Of a stretch of DNA of 43,091 bases, positions 6,648 to 37,251 are shown piece after piece; position 1 is the stretch's first letter, and every line of letters starts with the position of its first letter. The DNA lies in assembly GCA_021146305.1 (NCBI GenBank), contig GCA_021146305.1_4336.1; one strand, written 5' to 3'. Below the pieces are notes generated by a model. The model searched no databases. It was not told the DNA's origin and worked only from the letters and a program-made list of their open reading frames with translations. A program made the translations under genes and the position numbers. Origin of the DNA: a phage.

Positions 6648-6676
6648 TTGCACACCCCAATATAATAGTGTACTAT
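6648..6676 (+). promoter_or_regulatory. sigma70-like promoter with operator palindrome
   Basis: TTGCAC (6648-6653), 17-bp spacer, TACTAT (6671-6676); palindrome TAATAG-tgta-CTATTC (6663-6678) overlaps the -10; about 40 bp upstream of ATG 6718. Confidence 0.55.
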
Positions 6677-6717
6677 TCACTTACACCAACGATGTTATCC
6701 CAAACAGGAGCTACACC

Positions 6718-6946: not shown

Positions 6947-8077
6947 ATGGCCCGGAAGAAAATAACCGACGAACAGTTGCAGGAAGAATTGAACGCCGGT
7001 ATGAAGAATGTAGATATCGCCCGTAAATACGGCATCTCAGACCGCGTAATTCGTATCCGTAAAGCGAAGCTGGCTAAGAAAGGCGTGGGCCACGGGCGCG
7101 ACGTTAGCCACCTTGTGCCAGACGGCTACAAGATTAAAGGAACGTCGTCACTTGTGGACGAGTTCGGCAACACTAAGTTGCAATGGGTTAAGACTGATAC
7201 CGACGCCGAACGTCAGGTTGAATTGATGAAAGCCGTAATAGAGGGCATGAAGTCAGAGATTACGCCCGTTGCGCCTGTTAAAGCGGCGCGCGCCAAACGT
7301 GACGACAAGCTACTCAATCTTTACACTGTATCTGATTTCCATCTCGGTATGCTGGCATGGGCCGATGAGAGCGGCGACGACTGGGACATGAAGATTGCAG
7401 AAGACCTGTTCTCTCGGTGGTTCGACGCGGCGTTTCAGAAAGCACCGGATGCAGGAACAGGAGTTATTAACCTGCTTGGGGACTTCGCACACTTCGATAG
7501 TCTTGATGCCGTTACCCCCGAGTCGCGCCATGTATTAGATGCGGATACTCGCTATCAGAAACTGGTACGTTACATGATTCGTATGGTCCGCCGTGTTGTT
7601 GATATGGCGCTGGTTAAGCATCACACAGTAAAACTTTTAATCGTTCAAGGTAACCACGACCCTGTTGGCTCCGTATGGCTTGCCGAAATGTTCACGGTTT
7701 TATACTCAAACGACAGCCGAGTGATTGTTGATACGTCGCCGGATGTTTACAAGATGGTGCAACACGGCAAAACGACGCTGTTCTTCCATCACGGGCATAA
7801 AGCACGATTCGACGCTATCGAACCGGTTATGATTGCCAAGTTCCGTAAAGCGTTCGGCGAGAGTGTTTACAGCTACGCCCACGTAGGCCATCTGCACCAC
7901 CAGAAGATTGTAGAAAGCCGTAACATGATTGTTGAGCAACACCGCACCTTAGCGGCTAAAGACGCCTACGCCTCTCGCGGCGGATGGATGTCGGGCCGCA
8001 GTGCAAATGTAATTACTTATAGCGCCGGATATGGTGAGGTCGCACGTTTAACTATTTCACCGGAGATGCTGGGATGA
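6947..8077 (+). CDS. HTH-containing calcineurin-like metallophosphoesterase
   Basis: 376 aa; N-terminal helix-turn-helix-like segment, then ordered metallophosphoesterase motifs SDFHLG, GDFAHFD, GNHD, HHGH, GHLHH (motif I resembles SbcD/Mre11 DWHLG); AGGA RBS. Confidence 0.7.
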   Translation: MARKKITDEQLQEELNAGMKNVDIARKYGISDRVIRIRKAKLAKKGVGHGRDVSHLVPDGYKIKGTSSLVDEFGNTKLQWVKTDTDAERQVELMKAVIEGMKSEITPVAPVKAARAKRDDKLLNLYTVSDFHLGMLAWADESGDDWDMKIAEDLFSRWFDAAFQKAPDAGTGVINLLGDFAHFDSLDAVTPESRHVLDADTRYQKLVRYMIRMVRRVVDMALVKHHTVKLLIVQGNHDPVGSVWLAEMFTVLYSNDSRVIVDTSPDVYKMVQHGKTTLFFHHGHKARFDAIEPVMIAKFRKAFGESVYSYAHVGHLHHQKIVESRNMIVEQHRTLAAKDAYASRGGWMSGRSANVITYSAGYGEVARLTISPEMLG

Positions 8078-15561: not shown

Positions 15562-15671
15562 GTTTCTCCTTTCTCGATAAGTAAAGCCCCGCCATAAAGC
15601 GGGGCGCTAGTCCTTATCATTTAAACATAGAAACGGCGTAATCTCAGTAAACCAGTTACTTTTTACACAAG

Positions 15672-15826
15672 CAATAGAGTATGGCCCTTCCGAACGCGTC
15701 AGCGTAACTACACTCAGGACTTACGTCCCGCTCCGTTACCTGCCCGCGCCGCGGTCGCTTGTTCATACTTCACAAGCTCAGGTGGAGCTTAGCACATTTT
15801 TAGTGAAAAGTCAACTATTCGAATAG
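15672..15826 (-). promoter_or_regulatory. conserved promoter + structured leader module, copy 1
   Basis: Leftward promoter TTGACT (plus coords 15809-15814), 17-bp spacer, TAAGCT (15786-15791), with palindrome CTATTC-GAATAG (15815-15826) just upstream; about 110-bp conserved leader 15672-15778 shared with copy 2, including stem ggac-ttac-gtcc (15717-15728). Confidence 0.55.
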
Positions 15827-15880: not shown

Positions 15881-15909
15881 TTGCGCACCCCAATATAATA
15901 GGGTACTAT
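15881..15909 (+). promoter_or_regulatory. sigma70-like promoter with operator palindrome
   Basis: TTGCGC (15881-15886), 17-bp spacer, TACTAT (15904-15909); palindrome TAATAG-ggta-CTATTC (15896-15911); near-identical to the promoter at 6648-6676. Confidence 0.55.
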
Positions 15910-15936
15910 TCATTCTATCGAACCGGGGAGGCCGTC

Positions 15937-23891: not shown

Positions 23892-23920
23892 AATATAATA
23901 GGGTCGAGGATAATAGTCAA
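23892..23920 (-). promoter_or_regulatory. sigma70-like promoter (leftward)
   Basis: On the minus strand TTGACT (plus coords 23915-23920), 17-bp spacer, TATATT (23892-23897); directly downstream of the lysis-cassette terminator. Confidence 0.6.
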
Positions 23921-23942
23921 CTAGTCATCACAGAAAATAGAT

Positions 23943-26275: not shown

Positions 26276-26306
26276 CTTCTGTCTCTCCTCTAGTTTGTGT
26301 AAATGA

Positions 26307-26335
26307 ATAGTAGCCTATTCTATCTTAGTGTGCAA
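26307..26335 (-). promoter_or_regulatory. sigma70-like promoter with operator palindrome (leftward)
   Basis: Minus-strand TTGCAC (plus 26330-26335), 17-bp spacer, TACTAT (26307-26312); perfect palindrome GAATAG-tagc-CTATTC at 26305-26320. Confidence 0.55.
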
Positions 26336-26356
26336 GTAAATTTTATTGGTGTTTGT

Positions 26357-26446
26357 ATTGTCGCATTTCCTGCAATAGTCGCTTGGATTGTTGCATCTCC
26401 TGCAATAGTCGCTTGGATTGTTGCGTTTGGTGAAAGTGTCGCTTTT
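26357..26446. repeat. 30-bp tandem direct repeats (2 near-identical copies + 1 degenerate)
   Basis: attgtcgcatttcctgcaatagtcgcttgg (26357-26386), attgttgcatctcctgcaatagtcgcttgg (26387-26416), degenerate third copy 26417-26446. Confidence 0.8.
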
Positions 26447-26490: not shown

Positions 26491-26512
26491 AGTCACTAAG
26501 CCAAATATTAAC

Positions 26513-27175: not shown

Positions 27176-27210
27176 AACCCTCACTCCTTATGTCTCGTTT
27201 CGATAAGTGA

Positions 27211-27239
27211 ATAGTAGCCTATTATGTTGGGGTGTGCAA
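27211..27239 (-). promoter_or_regulatory. sigma70-like promoter with operator palindrome (leftward early)
   Basis: Minus-strand TTGCAC (plus 27234-27239), 17-bp spacer, TACTAT (27211-27216); palindrome GAATAG-tagc-CTATTA at 27209-27224. Confidence 0.55.
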
Positions 27240-27281
27240 GAGATTAGTTACGTTGCCGTTGTGATTCTTTTGTTTCTTTAA

Positions 27282-27337
27282 AGAGTACGCAACGCAGTGG
27301 GTGGGCGTTAGCCCACCCCAGCGGAGTGAAGTACTCT
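27282..27337. other. nested stem-loop in the early-left leader
   Basis: Outer inverted repeat AGAGTAC (27282-27288) / GTACTCT (27331-27337) enclosing inner hairpin GGGTGGGC-gtta-GCCCACCC (27299-27318). Confidence 0.45.
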
Positions 27338-27404
27338 CTACCTTGCTTACGGCAACTATAGAAACTTTTAATTATCAGTGACTTGAGTATTTAGGCGGGA
27401 TTAA

Positions 27405-27548
27405 CAATAGACTTTGGCCCTTCCGAAAGCGCCAGCGGAACTACACTCAAGTGCCTAATGGCACGCGTTGCGTTCCCTGCCGCTCCGCGGTCGCTTGCGA
27501 TATCTCACAAGCTCAGTGAAGCTTAGCATATTTTTAAGTAAAAGTCAA
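27405..27548 (-). promoter_or_regulatory. conserved promoter + structured leader module, copy 2
   Basis: Leftward promoter TTGACT (plus 27543-27548), 17-bp spacer, TAAGCT (27520-27525); leader 27405-27512 aligns with copy 1; stem gtgcc-taat-ggcac (27451-27464) replaces ggac-ttac-gtcc of copy 1. Confidence 0.55.
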
Positions 27549-27595
27549 TACCAGAAGCATCTTTTGTATCTTAGTAACTTTGTGTGGTGTTTTGG

Positions 27596-27624
27596 TTGCT
27601 TTTACATTCACGCTATCCTATACT
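27596..27624 (+). promoter_or_regulatory. sigma70-like promoter (rightward early)
   Basis: TTGCTT (27596-27601), 17-bp spacer, TATACT (27619-27624); about 30 bp upstream of ATG 27656. Confidence 0.5.
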
Positions 27625-27655
27625 CGTTTTCACCAAACAAACAGGAGATATAAAA

Positions 27656-27838
27656 ATGCAGCATTACATGACACAGAATGAAGTGGCTGAACGTATCGGG
27701 GTGACACGTCAAACCATTAATAACTGGTTGCGCAGCGGTAAATTCCCTGATTGCTGTATTAAGGTTATGGGTCGCCGTTTACCAGGAACATTTGACCGTA
27801 ATAAAGTTGAAGCATGGATTAAGGAGAACGTGAAATGA
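27656..27838 (+). CDS. HTH DNA-binding protein (AlpA / excisionase-like)
   Basis: 61 aa from ATG 27656 with AGGAGA RBS; helix-turn-helix VAERIGVTRQTINNWLRSG. Confidence 0.55.
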   Translation: MQHYMTQNEVAERIGVTRQTINNWLRSGKFPDCCIKVMGRRLPGTFDRNKVEAWIKENVK

Positions 27839-30804: not shown

Positions 30805-30827
30805 AAAGAAAGGGGCTTTAAGCCCCT
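30803..30827. terminator. intrinsic terminator (mainly minus strand)
   Basis: Hairpin AGGGGCT-tta-AGCCCCT (30811-30827) with A-run 30802-30810 on the plus strand (T-run on the minus strand); overlaps the last codons of the XRE gene. Confidence 0.5.
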
Positions 30828-31033
30828 TCACCTAACGCCAGCCACTTGGCGTCTACTTCCAGAACTTCCGCCAGTTTGAACAGCGTTGCCGGGCGGACGT
30901 CCTGAGTTACTCCAAGTGCCAGTTGGTTAATCGCGCCCTGGGAAACGCCGGTCAGGGCCGCCAAACGGCGCTGGGAGATGCCGAGTTCTTTACGGCGTTG
31001 TTCTACACGGATACCTAGTTCAGATGGTTGCAT
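30818..31033 (-). CDS. XRE-family (Cro/CI-type) HTH transcriptional regulator
   Basis: 71 aa; HTH ISQRRLAALTGVSQGAINQLALG; strong AAGGAG RBS; divergently oriented inside the rightward replication operon, with two operator palindromes just upstream. Confidence 0.75.
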   Translation of the reverse strand: MQPSELGIRVEQRRKELGISQRRLAALTGVSQGAINQLALGVTQDVRPATLFKLAEVLEVDAKWLALGEGA

Positions 31034-31062: not shown

Positions 31063-31126
31063 GAATAGTACCATATTAATTATTTTAGAAAAGCCCATTG
31101 ACATGTGAATAGTTCGCTATTATAGT
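31063..31126. promoter_or_regulatory. divergent promoter / operator region of the XRE gene
   Basis: Two palindromes GAATAG-tacc-ATATTA (31063-31078) and GAATAG-ttcg-CTATTA (31107-31122); rightward promoter TTGACA (31098-31103), 17-bp spacer, TATAGT (31121-31126); leftward promoter for the XRE gene has only a weak -35. Confidence 0.55.
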
Positions 31127-31154: not shown

Positions 31155-31382
31155 ATGAACACAATCACTGGGGCCATAGCTAAAGGTTTTCGAGCAATTT
31201 TCGGCGCTCCGCAAGAAGTGTGCACAAAACATAAATTTGTACTTTCTTGCGTAGTAGGGGATGAGTTTGATGGGTTCGATAAACTTGTTGTCTGCGACCA
31301 TTGCGGGCAAGAAGCTATTCAACACTCAAACGGTAAATTTGAACTAATAGACGATAGCCTTACTGAAGGCGACGGTGAGTAA
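31155..31382 (+). CDS. hypothetical acidic protein
   Basis: 75 aa; Cys motif C..C...CDHC; first gene downstream of the promoter at 31098-31126. Confidence 0.45.
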   Translation: MNTITGAIAKGFRAIFGAPQEVCTKHKFVLSCVVGDEFDGFDKLVVCDHCGQEAIQHSNGKFELIDDSLTEGDGE

Positions 31383-33461: not shown

Positions 33462-33661
33462 TTCAAGTAAATGAAATGCCCACAGATAAAGATTTTGTGA
33501 TGATATGGCGCTGGGGCGGTTATATCCATTCGGAATCGTTTACGTTCCTGAACGGCACGATGGAGCGATACAACCATGTGGAGGATGAATTCGAACCCGT
33601 TGATATGAATGATTTCGAGAACATAGTCCGTATTGCGAAATTTTATTTGACACCTGAATAG
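33458..33661 (+). CDS. hypothetical acidic protein
   Basis: 67 aa; ATGA coupling to the exonuclease gene. Confidence 0.4.
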   Translation: MIQVNEMPTDKDFVMIWRWGGYIHSESFTFLNGTMERYNHVEDEFEPVDMNDFENIVRIAKFYLTPE

Positions 33662-33675
33662 TTAGCTATTATAGT
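33647..33675 (+). promoter_or_regulatory. sigma70-like promoter with operator palindrome
   Basis: TTGACA (33647-33652), 17-bp spacer, TATAGT (33670-33675); palindrome GAATAG-ttag-CTATTA (33656-33671); same architecture as the promoter at 31098-31126. Confidence 0.55.
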
Positions 33676-36967: not shown

Positions 36968-37251
36968 TGACCCCGGAAGGCAAGATTCAGAAATACGCAA
37001 AAGAGCAATTCGAGGCCATTGGCGGCCTCGTTCGTAAACTTTCGTACGAGGGGCGCTCCGGCGCCCCTGACCTGCTGGTAATTCTCCCCGGCGGCATCGT
37101 CTGGTTCGTCGAGGTTAAGAAAGACGAAAACACGAAGCCAGACACGCACCAGTTACGTGAGCATGAGCGGATGCGTAAACGCGGTGCAAATGTTTTTGTC
37201 GTTGGTTCGTTCAAACAGGTTGACGACCTAATAGCGAACTATTATAGTTAA
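36967..37251 (+). CDS. VRR-NUC domain nuclease
   Basis: 94 aa; PD-(D/E)xK core GAPDLLVILPGG...VEVKK typical of VRR-NUC. Confidence 0.6.
   Translation: MTPEGKIQKYAKEQFEAIGGLVRKLSYEGRSGAPDLLVILPGGIVWFVEVKKDENTKPDTHQLREHERMRKRGANVFVVGSFKQVDDLIANYYS

What the first reader, a model, noticed from the sequence alone, without database searches (positions are those of the whole stretch)
30818..31033. Cro/CI-type repressor in a genome with no recognisable integrase, excisionase-attachment site or partition system
Gene content otherwise looks like a lytic phage (own family A polymerase, helicase, primases, no integrase), yet a classic XRE HTH repressor is embedded with its operators in the replication operon. 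It may time the early-to-middle switch rather than maintain lysogeny, or the phage may have an unconventional carrier state.
Basis: inference. Interest (0 to 1): 0.4.

Follow-up and report, generated by a model that had tools for sequence, protein, structure and literature searches.

The report
Cro-like repressor of a lytic phage
A small, 434-Cro-like DNA-binding protein in a strictly lytic E. coli phage (genus Kagunavirus) most likely binds a 14-base palindrome that sits on ten of the phage's own promoters, so it looks like a lytic-cycle transcription brake rather than a lysogeny repressor.

Summary
Window 30818-31033 (minus strand) encodes a 71-aa XRE/HTH_3 protein. It is under strong purifying selection and its best solved-structure matches are 434 Cro and the 434 repressor DNA-binding domain.

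The window is a complete, circularly permuted Kagunavirus genome. A Pfam scan of 81 predicted genes found no integrase, recombinase, transposase, partition or protelomerase gene. One small excisionase-family HTH_17 gene is present.

The new result is a palindrome, AATAG-N4-CTATT. It occurs 7 times exactly (0.03 expected) and 11 times with at most one mismatch (1.27 expected). Ten of these sites overlap the core of sigma-70-type promoters with 17-bp spacers. Two sites flank the repressor's own promoter in a lambda PR/PRM-like layout. The perfect sites sit on delayed-early and replication promoters; the promoters ahead of late genes carry one-mismatch sites. A divergent promoter pair at 27.5 kb has no site.

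Natural variants that lack or alter the HTH_17 protein keep the sites unchanged, which points to the XRE protein as the binder. Binding itself is inferred, not shown.

The most likely role is a Cro-like, self-regulating turn-down of phage transcription. A carrier state is not excluded: one related phage genome is deposited as a "plasmid". This is a moderately interesting new member of a known kind.

The parts
30818..31033 (-). XRE/Cro-like repressor gene (71 aa)
   Evidence: Pfam HTH_3 at E 3.9e-13. Best solved-structure matches are 434 Cro and 434 repressor at E about 1e-5. The AlphaFold2 model has mean pLDDT 81 and an XRE fold. pN/pS is about 0.09.
30809..30829 (-). Intrinsic terminator hairpin that contains the XRE stop codon. 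A T-run follows only on the minus strand.
   Evidence: 9-pair stem followed by CTTTTTAT; sequence
31082..31109 (-). Predicted promoter of the XRE gene (TTCACA-16-TAAAAT, 10/12)
   Evidence: conserved in 37 Kagunavirus loci
31064..31077 (.). O1, a weak operator (AATAGTACCATATT, one mismatch) lying about +1 to +12 of the XRE promoter
   Evidence: the same mismatch is kept in all 37 loci
31108..31121 (.). O2, a perfect operator (AATAGTTCGCTATT). It lies in the spacer of the rightward promoter and is centred about -40 of the XRE promoter.
   Evidence: arms invariant and centre variable in 37 loci
31098..31126 (+). Class A promoter P_R (TTGACA-17-TATAGT, 11/12), driving the 75-aa ORF, the 166-aa and 90-aa ORFs and the exonuclease
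33647..33675 (+). Class A promoter with a perfect operator at 33657-33670, upstream of the ssDNA-binding protein and DNA polymerase genes
37220..37248 (+). Class A promoter (TTGACG-17-TATAGT) with a perfect operator at 37230-37243, upstream of the methyltransferase, SNF2 helicase and Toprim genes
6648..6677 (+). Class B promoter (TTGCAC-17-TACTAT) with a perfect operator at 6664-6677 over the -10. It drives the superinfection-immunity gene and the exonuclease/phosphatase block.
15881..15910 (+). Class B promoter (TTGCGC-17-TACTAT) with a perfect operator at 15897-15910. It drives a small ORF and a 114-aa lipoprotein-like ORF.
26306..26335 (-). Class B promoter with a perfect operator at 26306-26319. 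It drives leftward early genes, beginning with the 146-aa ORF.
27210..27239 (-). Class B promoter with a perfect operator at 27210-27223. It drives leftward early genes.
23892..23925 (-). Class C promoter (TTGACT-17-TATATT) with a one-mismatch operator at 23912-23925 over the -35, upstream of small genes and the terminase genes
   Evidence: the same mismatch is present in Bas70, in IMG/VR loci and in Jerseyvirus SE2
15786..15819 (-). Class C promoter (TTGACT-17-TAAGCT) with a one-mismatch operator at 15806-15819 over the -35, upstream of the Rz/Rz1, scaffold and capsid genes
27520..27548 (-). Promoter without an operator (TTGACT-17-TAAGCT). It is a paralogue of the 15814 promoter but lacks the left operator arm. 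Likely an immediate-early leftward promoter.
27596..27624 (+). Promoter without an operator (TTGCTT-17-TATACT), heading the HTH_17 / helicase-primase operon
27656..27838 (+). Second small DNA-binding protein (HTH_17, excisionase family; 60 aa). It is the main rival candidate for binding the palindrome.
   Evidence: dispensable for keeping the palindrome

Best explanation
The gene encodes a single-domain protein of the 434-Cro type. It most likely binds, as a dimer, the 14-bp palindrome AATAG-N4-CTATT (extended form in Kagunavirus: TGAATAG-N4-CTATTAT).

Ten such sites overlap the core elements of host sigma-70-type promoters of the phage. Bound protein would therefore block RNA polymerase by occupying the promoter.

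Proposed sequence of events:
- The protein is made early from its own promoter.
- It first fills the perfect sites. These lie on the leftward early and accessory-gene (superinfection-immunity, lipoprotein-like) promoters (class B) and on the three replication-operon promoters (class A).
- At higher levels it fills the one-mismatch sites on its own transcription start (O1) and on the promoters ahead of the late genes (class C).
- The divergent promoter pair at 27.5 kb has no site and escapes.

The result is a self-limiting turn-down of phage transcription during lytic growth, comparable to what Cro does in lambdoid phages but without a CI partner.

Shown: the gene, its fold family, its selective constraint, the sites, their placement on promoters, and their conservation.

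Inferred: that this protein binds these sites, that binding represses, and the order of events.
For: Family:
- HTH_3 at E 3.9e-13.
- Full-length alignment to 434 Cro and the 434 repressor N-terminal domain at E about 1e-5 and about 40% identity.
- Same length as 434 Cro (71 aa; my own knowledge), and 434 also uses 14-bp operators (my own knowledge).
- XRE fold in the model.

Sites:
- 7 exact against 0.03 expected; 11 at one mismatch or fewer against 1.27 expected.
- It is the only strongly enriched palindrome that is not a terminator hairpin.
- All ten promoter-associated sites overlap a -35, a spacer or a -10 of promoters with 17-bp spacers.

Autoregulatory layout:
- O2 is perfect, lies inside the P_R spacer and is centred about 40 bp upstream of the predicted XRE transcription start.
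- O1 overlaps that start.

Footprint in relatives:
- In 37 Kagunavirus loci the arms are invariant while the centre of O2 varies (CGAA, TGAA, CTAA, CTAG, CAAA, CGAG).
- O1 always keeps its one mismatch.

Which protein binds:
- Loci L157 and L147 lack the HTH_17 gene at its fixed position. L142 and L160 carry a variant with a changed recognition helix. All four keep every class of site unchanged.
- The XRE recognition helix is nearly invariant in Kagunavirus; the single substitution seen (G33S in L030) leaves the sites unchanged.
- In Jerseyvirus the XRE is 48% identical with a different recognition helix, and the outer flank of the site shifts from TG to TT/AT.
- In Cornellvirus the XRE is 41-43% identical and the palindrome is absent.

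Expression: in Kagunavirus vB_Eco_K1B4, an HTH gene is one of only four genes that peak early (PMC12645636). That this gene is the XRE is my inference from gene order.

Lifestyle:
- No integrase or partition gene.
- No copy in 5,426 complete E. coli genomes.
- No enterobacterial prophage hit among GTDB species representatives.
Against: - No binding or expression data exist for this protein.
- Cornellvirus lacks both the palindrome and HTH_17, so on that comparison alone the site would track HTH_17 equally well.
- Kagunavirus and Jerseyvirus XRE proteins differ at four recognition-helix positions, yet the 5-bp arms are the same.
- L157 and L147 are partial loci (16.2 and 9.3 kb), so an HTH_17 copy elsewhere in those contigs is not excluded.
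- Sites also lie on the promoters ahead of structural and lysis genes. That pattern is what a whole-genome silencer would show, not only an early-gene brake.
- Promoters and transcription starts are consensus predictions only (notes that the number of consensus hits in the region is at chance level).
Confidence: 0.58

Rival explanations
1. The palindromes are bound by another phage factor (the HTH_17 excisionase-like protein or an unidentified small early protein). The XRE protein then has a narrower or different target, and its position next to two sites reflects being regulated rather than regulating.
For: - HTH_17 is 82% identical between Kagunavirus and Jerseyvirus, which share the palindrome, and is absent from Cornellvirus, which lacks it.
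- The XRE is only 48% identical between the two genera.
- Some proteins with the MerR-like winged-helix fold, such as RacA, bind 14-bp palindromes (fold match; RacA's site is from my own knowledge).
Against: - L157 and L147 have no HTH_17 at its fixed position, and L142 and L160 have a changed recognition helix, yet all site classes are unchanged.
- The 60-aa protein has no dimerisation helix, and its closest folds (BldC, Xis, RdfS) bind direct repeats head to tail (binding mode is from my own knowledge).
- The HTH_17 operon's own promoter has no site.
Confidence: 0.15
2. The protein is a working immunity-type repressor. It can silence almost the whole genome, late promoters included, and so allows a non-integrated carrier or pseudolysogenic state in a phage group regarded as strictly virulent.
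For: - Sites lie on the promoters ahead of the lysis-downstream, terminase and capsid genes as well as on early ones.
- The O1/O2 layout resembles lambda PR/PRM, with a site near -40 of the repressor's own promoter.
- A complete Kagunavirus genome (97.6% identical over the region tested) is deposited as the circular 44,086-bp 'plasmid' pC16EC0033-2 of a blood isolate of E. coli.
- The nearest relatives outside the subfamily are CI-type repressors with S24 peptidase domains.
Against: - There is no partition, integrase or plasmid-maintenance gene in the window or in that 'plasmid'.
- The protein has no C-terminal oligomerisation or cleavage domain (71 aa).
- Two divergent promoters at 27.5 kb carry no site, so the genome would not be fully silent.
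- There is one record among 72,556 plasmids and none among 5,426 complete E. coli genomes. Contamination or ongoing lytic infection of the sequenced culture explains that record equally well.
- Published isolates form clear plaques and are reported as lytic (PMC13216507, PMC7203180).
Confidence: 0.09
3. The protein acts mainly on other DNA. It might silence superinfecting relatives (homotypic exclusion), or regulate host or resident-prophage genes, rather than timing the phage's own programme.
For: - Two operator-bearing promoters drive a superinfection-immunity protein and a lipoprotein-like ORF, so the circuit is linked to exclusion functions.
- A repressor made early would meet incoming genomes that carry the same sites.
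- Others have proposed that temperate-like genes in Jerseyvirus act on resident prophages (PMC9409062).
Against: - The sites are on the phage's own promoters and are conserved there.
- No host target was sought or found.
- This role would add to self-regulation rather than replace it.
Confidence: 0.08
4. The gene is an inert relic of a temperate ancestor, or it is an antitoxin or a restriction-modification controller protein that merely shares the XRE fold.
For: - The fold matches include HipB and HigA antitoxins and C-proteins.
- A methyltransferase gene is present.
- Temperate-like genes in this virulent group have been noted before (PMC9409062).
Against: - Strong purifying selection, pN/pS about 0.09.
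- The gene is conserved across three genera.
- It is monocistronic, with its own promoter and terminator, and has no adjacent toxin or endonuclease gene.
Confidence: 0.03

Closest known systems
Phage 434 Cro (and the lambda and P22 Cro functional class)
   Same: - Single-domain XRE helix-turn-helix protein of 71 aa.
- Best solved-structure sequence match, about 40% identity over the full length.
- 14-bp palindromic sites with conserved arms and a variable centre.
- Sites overlap a rightward early promoter and the divergent promoter.
- Expected to turn down early transcription during lytic growth.
   Different: - There is no CI partner gene and no OR1-OR2-OR3 triplet.
- The gene is transcribed leftward from its own promoter, whereas cro is the first gene of P_R.
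- Sites are spread over about ten promoters across the genome.
- The half-site is AATAG, not ACAA.
- The phage has no lysogeny module.
Phage P1 C1 repressor, and the mycobacteriophage L5 gp71 repressor with its 'stoperator' sites
   Same: One small repressor with many sites dispersed over the phage genome. (This comparison rests on my own knowledge of those systems.)
   Different: - Those sites are asymmetric.
- Those phages are temperate, and the repressor maintains a prophage.
- L5 sites act within transcribed regions and depend on orientation.
- Here the sites are palindromic and overlap core promoter elements in a virulent phage.
Bacillus phage phi29 protein p4
   Same: A virulent phage that uses host RNA polymerase and a small DNA-binding protein at inverted repeats next to divergent promoters to switch off early promoters. 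(From my own knowledge.)
   Different: - p4 has a different fold.
- It works with p6 and also activates the late promoter.
- It acts at one control region, not at ten.
The 'phage promoter' motif tgAATAGTa-ccTATTat-T reported for Kagunavirus fBC-Eco01 (PMC9825357)
   Same: It is the same sequence motif, found seven times by the PHIRE repeat finder.
   Different: That paper assigned the motif to a phage-encoded RNA polymerase. No RNA polymerase domain was found among the window's genes. The motif is a palindrome embedded in sigma-70-type promoters, so it is better read as an operator.

Membership tests
XRE / Cro-CI helix-turn-helix family (Pfam HTH_3, PF01381) | Domain match above the curated threshold | tested here: met
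   49.7 bits against a cut-off of 23, E 3.9e-13, covering profile positions 2-55 of 55
XRE / Cro-CI helix-turn-helix family (Pfam HTH_3, PF01381) | Compact all-helical fold with the helix-turn-helix at helices 2 and 3 | tested here: met
   The single-sequence AlphaFold2 model has mean pLDDT 81 and helices at 5-17, 21-28, 32-39 and 48-68. Foldseek matches HipB, 434 Cro, 434 repressor, P22 C2 and SinR with TM about 0.6-0.7. The C-terminal 10 residues are of low confidence.
Cro-type lytic repressor of lambdoid phages | Small single-domain protein with no C-terminal oligomerisation or cleavage domain | tested here: met
   71 aa, and the HTH_3 domain spans residues 11-65
Cro-type lytic repressor of lambdoid phages | Palindromic operators that overlap the early promoter and the divergent promoter | tested here: met
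   O2 lies in the P_R spacer and O1 over the predicted XRE transcription start. Binding itself was not tested.
Cro-type lytic repressor of lambdoid phages | Paired with a divergently transcribed CI repressor that shares the same operators | tested here: not met
   The only other HTH proteins found are HTH_17 at 27656..27838 and an HTH-like N-terminus in the 376-aa exonuclease. No second XRE gene is present.
Cro-type lytic repressor of lambdoid phages | Sequence-specific binding as a dimer, and repression in vivo | not testable with these tools
   Needs EMSA or footprinting and reporter assays
CI-type immunity (lysogeny-maintenance) repressor | C-terminal dimerisation domain or S24 self-cleavage domain | tested here: not met
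   Absent. The relatives that have one are 202-246 aa long (loci L057-L060, L072, L073).
CI-type immunity (lysogeny-maintenance) repressor | Occurs together with an integrase, or with partition or protelomerase genes | tested here: not met
   None among 81 predicted genes, nor in the annotated relatives Bas70, SE2, VSiA and SE1
CI-type immunity (lysogeny-maintenance) repressor | Prophage copies present in host genomes | tested here: not met
   No match in 5,426 complete E. coli genomes. No enterobacterial hit among 185,579 species representatives. One extrachromosomal 'plasmid' record only.
XRE-type antitoxin (HipB/HigA) or restriction-modification controller protein | Co-transcribed toxin or restriction endonuclease gene | tested here: not met
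   The gene is monocistronic, lying between its own promoter and terminator. The neighbouring genes are on the other strand and have no toxin or nuclease domain.

The most novel reading that the evidence does not exclude
Kagunavirus and Jerseyvirus are treated as strictly lytic and are used for therapy and biocontrol. They may nevertheless carry a working whole-genome silencing switch. On this reading the Cro-like protein, through its roughly ten promoter-overlapping sites (including those ahead of the late genes) and a lambda PRM-like self-activating and self-limiting layout, can hold the genome in a quiet, non-integrated carrier state. That would explain a complete Kagunavirus genome deposited as a circular 'plasmid' of a clinical E. 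coli isolate.
Probability: 0.09. Interest if true: 0.75.

Novelty: new member of a known kind. Interest (0 to 1): 0.4.

Why it matters
Guernseyvirinae (Kagunavirus and Jerseyvirus) are among the small siphoviruses most often isolated for therapy and food biocontrol. They are also being adopted as small-genome models: Kagunavirus isolates are in the BASEL collection, whose authors call the small genomes attractive models for synthetic biology and cite the Kagunavirus-type phage CM001 as an example.

Their transcription programme is essentially uncharacterised. The repeated motif has been misread as a promoter for a phage RNA polymerase that does not exist.

A defined repressor-operator set of about ten sites would give:
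- a testable map of immediate-early, repressible-early and late transcription units;
- a ready-made orthogonal repressor/operator pair for engineering;
- a concrete test of whether annotations such as 'repressor' and 'excisionase' in these genomes pose any lysogeny risk. Present evidence says they do not, but the silencing potential deserves one direct experiment.

Tried and rejected
- HTH_17 as the protein that binds the palindrome. This looked likely at first, because Cornellvirus lacks both. I rejected it as the best candidate after finding Kagunavirus loci without HTH_17, or with a changed recognition helix, that keep the sites unchanged.
- A different palindrome in Cornellvirus that co-varies with its XRE. 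No enriched palindrome was found and none in its P_R. Only decayed versions of the site remain, plus 21-bp-period GTGAATAGTTATGC direct repeats downstream of the helicase-primase gene. The meaning of those repeats is unclear.
- More distant HTH_17 relatives in IMG/VR. Only Kagunavirus and Jerseyvirus copies at 80% identity or more were returned.
- Rfam and tRNA scans of the window. Nothing was found.
- Supplementary files of the K1B4 RNA-seq paper, to identify gene _008. They hold host tables only.
- The palindrome ATTGACATGTGAAT at 31097-31110 as an operator. It is explained by two back-to-back -35 hexamers.
- Sites with two mismatches. There are 25 against about 17 expected, so these are mostly chance. 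The one-mismatch site at 26504 has no promoter context and may also be chance.
- My first greedy gene call picked some antisense ORFs. I replaced it with a strand-aware call guided by the Bas70 annotation.
Full report
**What is at the coordinates**

Window 30818..31033 (minus strand) is an ATG-initiated ORF of 71 aa. It matches Pfam HTH_3 at 49.7 bits against a cut-off of 23, E 3.9e-13, and also HTH_19 and HTH_31. In PHROGs it falls in generic 'transcriptional repressor/regulator' families.

Against all PDB sequences the best matches are an engineered variant of the 434 repressor DNA-binding domain (dh434), then 434 Cro and the native 434 repressor DNA-binding domain. The E-values are about 1e-5 and the alignments cover nearly the full length at roughly 40% identity. 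P22 C2 follows. A single-sequence AlphaFold2 model (mean pLDDT 81) is all-helical. By Foldseek it resembles HipB, 434 Cro and repressor, P22 C2, SinR and the restriction-modification controller proteins. The fold therefore fixes the family but not the role.

Across 36 Kagunavirus loci the mean pN is 0.020 and the mean pS 0.218, so the gene is constrained. A 9-bp-stem hairpin followed by a T-run on the minus strand contains the stop codon. On the plus strand the same hairpin is not followed by a T-run (sequence).

**What the window is**

The region is 93-96% identical to E. coli phages of the genus Kagunavirus, subfamily Guernseyvirinae. Mapping the 83 annotated genes of phage Bas70 onto the window shows the same gene order, with the tail-protein gene running across the window ends. 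The window is therefore a complete, circularly permuted genome, which makes the 'no integrase' claim testable.

I called 81 genes with strand blocks guided by Bas70 and scanned them all against Pfam.
- Not found: integrase, serine recombinase, transposase, ParA/ParB or protelomerase.
- Found: family A polymerase, AAA_25 helicase-primase, SNF2 helicase, a weak Toprim match, a PD-(D/E)XK exonuclease, an Enc34-type ssDNA-binding protein, a superinfection-immunity protein, and the structural and lysis genes.
- No tRNA gene or Rfam family is present.

This gene has already been noted as a puzzling marker of strictly virulent Jerseyvirus (PMC9409062).

**The operators**

The 121-bp region upstream of the gene holds a 25-nt direct repeat and two back-to-back predicted promoters:
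- rightward, TTGACA-17-TATAGT, 11 of 12 matches;
- leftward (for the XRE gene), TTCACA-16-TAAAAT, 10 of 12 matches.

Each copy of the repeat contains a 14-bp palindrome, AATAG-N4-CTATT. Searched across the genome, this palindrome occurs 11 times at one mismatch or fewer, against 1.08 expected. In my own shuffles there were 7 exact copies against 0.03 expected and 11 against 1.27. In an unbiased count of all 4-6-nt arms at spacings of 0-10, it is the only strongly enriched palindrome that is not a terminator hairpin.

Ten of the eleven sites overlap predicted promoters, and all ten promoters have 17-bp spacers. They fall into three classes.
- Class A, plus strand (31098, 33647, 37220): TTGACA/G-17-TATAGT, with the site filling the spacer and touching the -10. 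These drive the three replication operons.
- Class B (6648 plus, 15881 plus, 26335 minus, 27239 minus): TTGCAC-17-TACTAT, with the site over the -10. These drive the leftward early genes and two accessory cassettes, one encoding a superinfection-immunity protein and one a lipoprotein-like ORF.
- Class C, minus strand (23920, 15814): TTGACT-17-TATATT or TAAGCT, with the site over the -35. These precede the terminase genes and the Rz/scaffold/capsid genes.

All seven perfect sites belong to classes A and B. Both class C sites, and O1 (which lies on the predicted XRE transcription start), carry one mismatch. None of these mismatches lies inside a promoter hexamer.

Two divergent promoters at 27548 (minus) and 27596 (plus) carry no site. 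The first is a paralogue of the 15814 promoter that lacks exactly the left operator arm.

O2 is centred about 40 bp upstream of the predicted XRE start and O1 at about +5. This layout recalls lambda PR/PRM. That comparison is my inference, because the transcription starts are predicted, not measured.

**Evidence from relatives**

The XRE protein is present throughout Guernseyvirinae: Kagunavirus 93-100% identity, Jerseyvirus about 48%, Cornellvirus 41-43%. More distant relatives are CI-type repressors with S24 domains in other phages.

In 37 IMG/VR Kagunavirus loci the arms of O2, and of the site upstream of the ssDNA-binding protein gene, never change. Their central four bases vary (CGAA, TGAA, CTAA, CTAG, CAAA, CGAG, and others). 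O1 always keeps its single mismatch. Conserved arms with a free centre are what a dimeric helix-turn-helix operator is expected to show.

Jerseyvirus SE2 has seven sites at the equivalent promoters, against 1.2 expected. Its outer flank differs in a consistent way: Kagunavirus has tgAATAG...CTATTat and Jerseyvirus has atAATAG...CTATTaa. This goes together with a different recognition helix, QGAINQ against QSLITH.

Cornellvirus (VSiA, SE1) has no enriched palindrome. Its homologous promoters keep the -35 and -10, but the arms have decayed.

**Which protein binds**

Cornellvirus also lacks the HTH_17 gene, and HTH_17 is 82% identical between the two genera that share the palindrome. For a while this made HTH_17 the better candidate. 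I then fetched longer flanks around the XRE gene and checked each locus.
- Two Kagunavirus loci, L157 and L147, have no HTH_17 at its fixed position. In its place are a 149-aa ORF and a 47-aa zinc-ribbon-like ORF, and the primase N-terminal domain is different. Both loci keep class A, B and C sites and O1 unchanged.
- Two others, L142 and L160, carry an HTH_17 variant with a changed recognition helix (STMTLNRW instead of TRQTINNW). Their sites are also unchanged.
- The XRE recognition helix is the same in all these loci. Across Kagunavirus the only substitution seen is G33S in L030, which leaves the sites unchanged.

The HTH_17 model is a MerR-like winged helix without a dimerisation helix. 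Its nearest folds are RacA, BldC, Xis and RdfS, most of which bind direct repeats (my own knowledge). I therefore put the XRE protein as the binder at roughly 0.7-0.75 and HTH_17 at about 0.05, with the rest going to an unidentified factor. Two caveats apply: the two HTH_17-less loci are partial, and the Cornellvirus comparison is a single evolutionary event.

**Lifestyle**

- A 5.9-kb query spanning the gene finds nothing in 5,426 complete E. coli genomes.
- Among 185,579 species-representative genomes the only close hit is a Jerseyvirus-like XRE on a scaffold of an unrelated bacterium.
- Published Kagunavirus and Jerseyvirus isolates are reported as lytic, with no lysogeny genes (PMC7203180, PMC9825357, PMC13216507). 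The BASEL study isolates and phenotypes Kagunavirus phages without reporting any temperate behaviour for them.
- The one oddity is CP088689.1, a circular 44,086-bp 'plasmid' of a blood isolate of E. coli. It is a complete Kagunavirus genome, 97.6% identical over the query, with no maintenance genes. This could reflect carriage, ongoing infection of the culture, or contamination.

**Published hints**

- The fBC-Eco01 paper reports the motif tgAATAGTa-ccTATTat-T seven times and assigns it to a phage-encoded RNA polymerase (PMC9825357). No RNA polymerase domain was detected among the window's genes, and the motif lies inside sigma-70-type promoters.
- In a time-course RNA-seq of Kagunavirus vB_Eco_K1B4, an HTH gene (_008) is one of only four genes that peak early, while a 'specific DNA binding' gene (_004) and the AAA-domain gene (_005) peak later (PMC12645636). 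From the gene order I infer that _008 is the XRE gene and _004 the HTH_17 gene. I could not verify this.

**Most likely mechanism**

1. Host RNA polymerase starts at all the phage promoters.
2. The Cro-like protein accumulates from its own promoter.
3. It first occupies the perfect sites on class A and B promoters, lowering transcription of the leftward early genes, the accessory cassettes and the replication operons.
4. At higher levels it occupies O1 (self-limitation) and the weaker class C sites.
5. The operator-less promoter pair at 27.5 kb is unaffected.

Rightward transcription that reads through the hairpin at 30809-30829, which has no T-run on the plus strand, would run antisense to the XRE gene and could oppose its expression. 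That last step is inference only.

This is the Cro principle applied in a phage that has no CI and no lysogeny module, with the sites spread over the genome.

**Verdict**

The gene is already annotated as 'repressor', 'Cro' or 'DicA' in many database records. What is new here is the operator set, its three promoter classes, its graded mismatches, and the argument for which protein binds it. I rate this a new member of a known kind, with interest 0.4.

Noticed in passing
window 15640-15790 and 27373-27523 (minus strand): Both TTGACT-17-TAAGCT promoters are followed by a leader of about 130-150 nt that is 82% identical between the two copies. One hairpin is kept through different sequences (GGAC-GUAA-GUCC against GUGCC-AUUA-GGCAC). 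This may be an RNA element, perhaps for reading through the internal terminators. Folding energies are not better than shuffled sequence.
   Followed up: partly
window 27520-27548 (minus strand) and 27596-27624 (plus strand): A divergent pair of predicted promoters without the palindrome, inside a non-coding stretch of about 470 bp (27185-27655) that also holds a GC-rich hairpin near 27300-27320. These are likely the immediate-early promoters; the stretch could also hold an origin of replication.
   Followed up: partly
window 26353-26442: Three tandem 30-nt repeats (TTGTATTGTCGCATTTCCTGCAATAGTCGC and variants) lie just upstream of the class B promoter at 26335. They could be iteron-like binding sites, or the repeats of a small Cys-rich ORF on the minus strand.
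   Followed up: no
window 31155-31382 (plus strand): The 75-aa Cys-rich ORF directly after P_R is an accessory insert. It is present in only a few Kagunavirus loci; in most, the 166-aa gene follows the promoter directly.
   Followed up: partly
CP088689.1 (loci L130 and L137): A complete Kagunavirus genome is deposited as the circular 44,086-bp plasmid pC16EC0033-2 of a human blood isolate of E. coli. It has no partition or integrase gene.
   Followed up: partly
L157 10559-11144 and L147 3624-4209: Some Kagunaviruses replace the HTH_17 gene with a 149-aa ORF and a 47-aa zinc-ribbon-like ORF that have no Pfam match. This comes together with a different N-terminal primase domain in the helicase-primase, so it looks like a module swap at the head of the operon.
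   Followed up: partly
L003 37038-37080; also L053-L056: Cornellvirus genomes carry two or three GTGAATAGTTATGC direct repeats, 21 bp apart, in a G-rich region downstream of the helicase-primase gene. The repeat shares the GTGAATAG half-site with the Kagunavirus operators. It may be an origin iteron, or the shared half-site may be chance.
   Followed up: partly
L003 34354-37005 and L004 4112-7002: In Cornellvirus the XRE gene heads the helicase-primase operon at the main divergent control region, the place taken by HTH_17 in Kagunavirus and Jerseyvirus. The helicase-primase segment is inverted relative to those two genera.
   Followed up: partly
window 6947-8077 (plus strand): The 376-aa 'DNA repair exonuclease' has an N-terminal stretch that looks like a helix-turn-helix, and its homologue is annotated as a winged-helix protein in CP088689.1. 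This is a third possible DNA-binding protein, and it lies under a class B promoter.
   Followed up: no
PMC9825357 (fBC-Eco01 paper): The palindrome motif is published as a promoter for a 'phage-encoded RNA polymerase'. No RNA polymerase domain was found in this window's genes or in the annotated relatives examined, so that attribution looks mistaken.
   Followed up: yes
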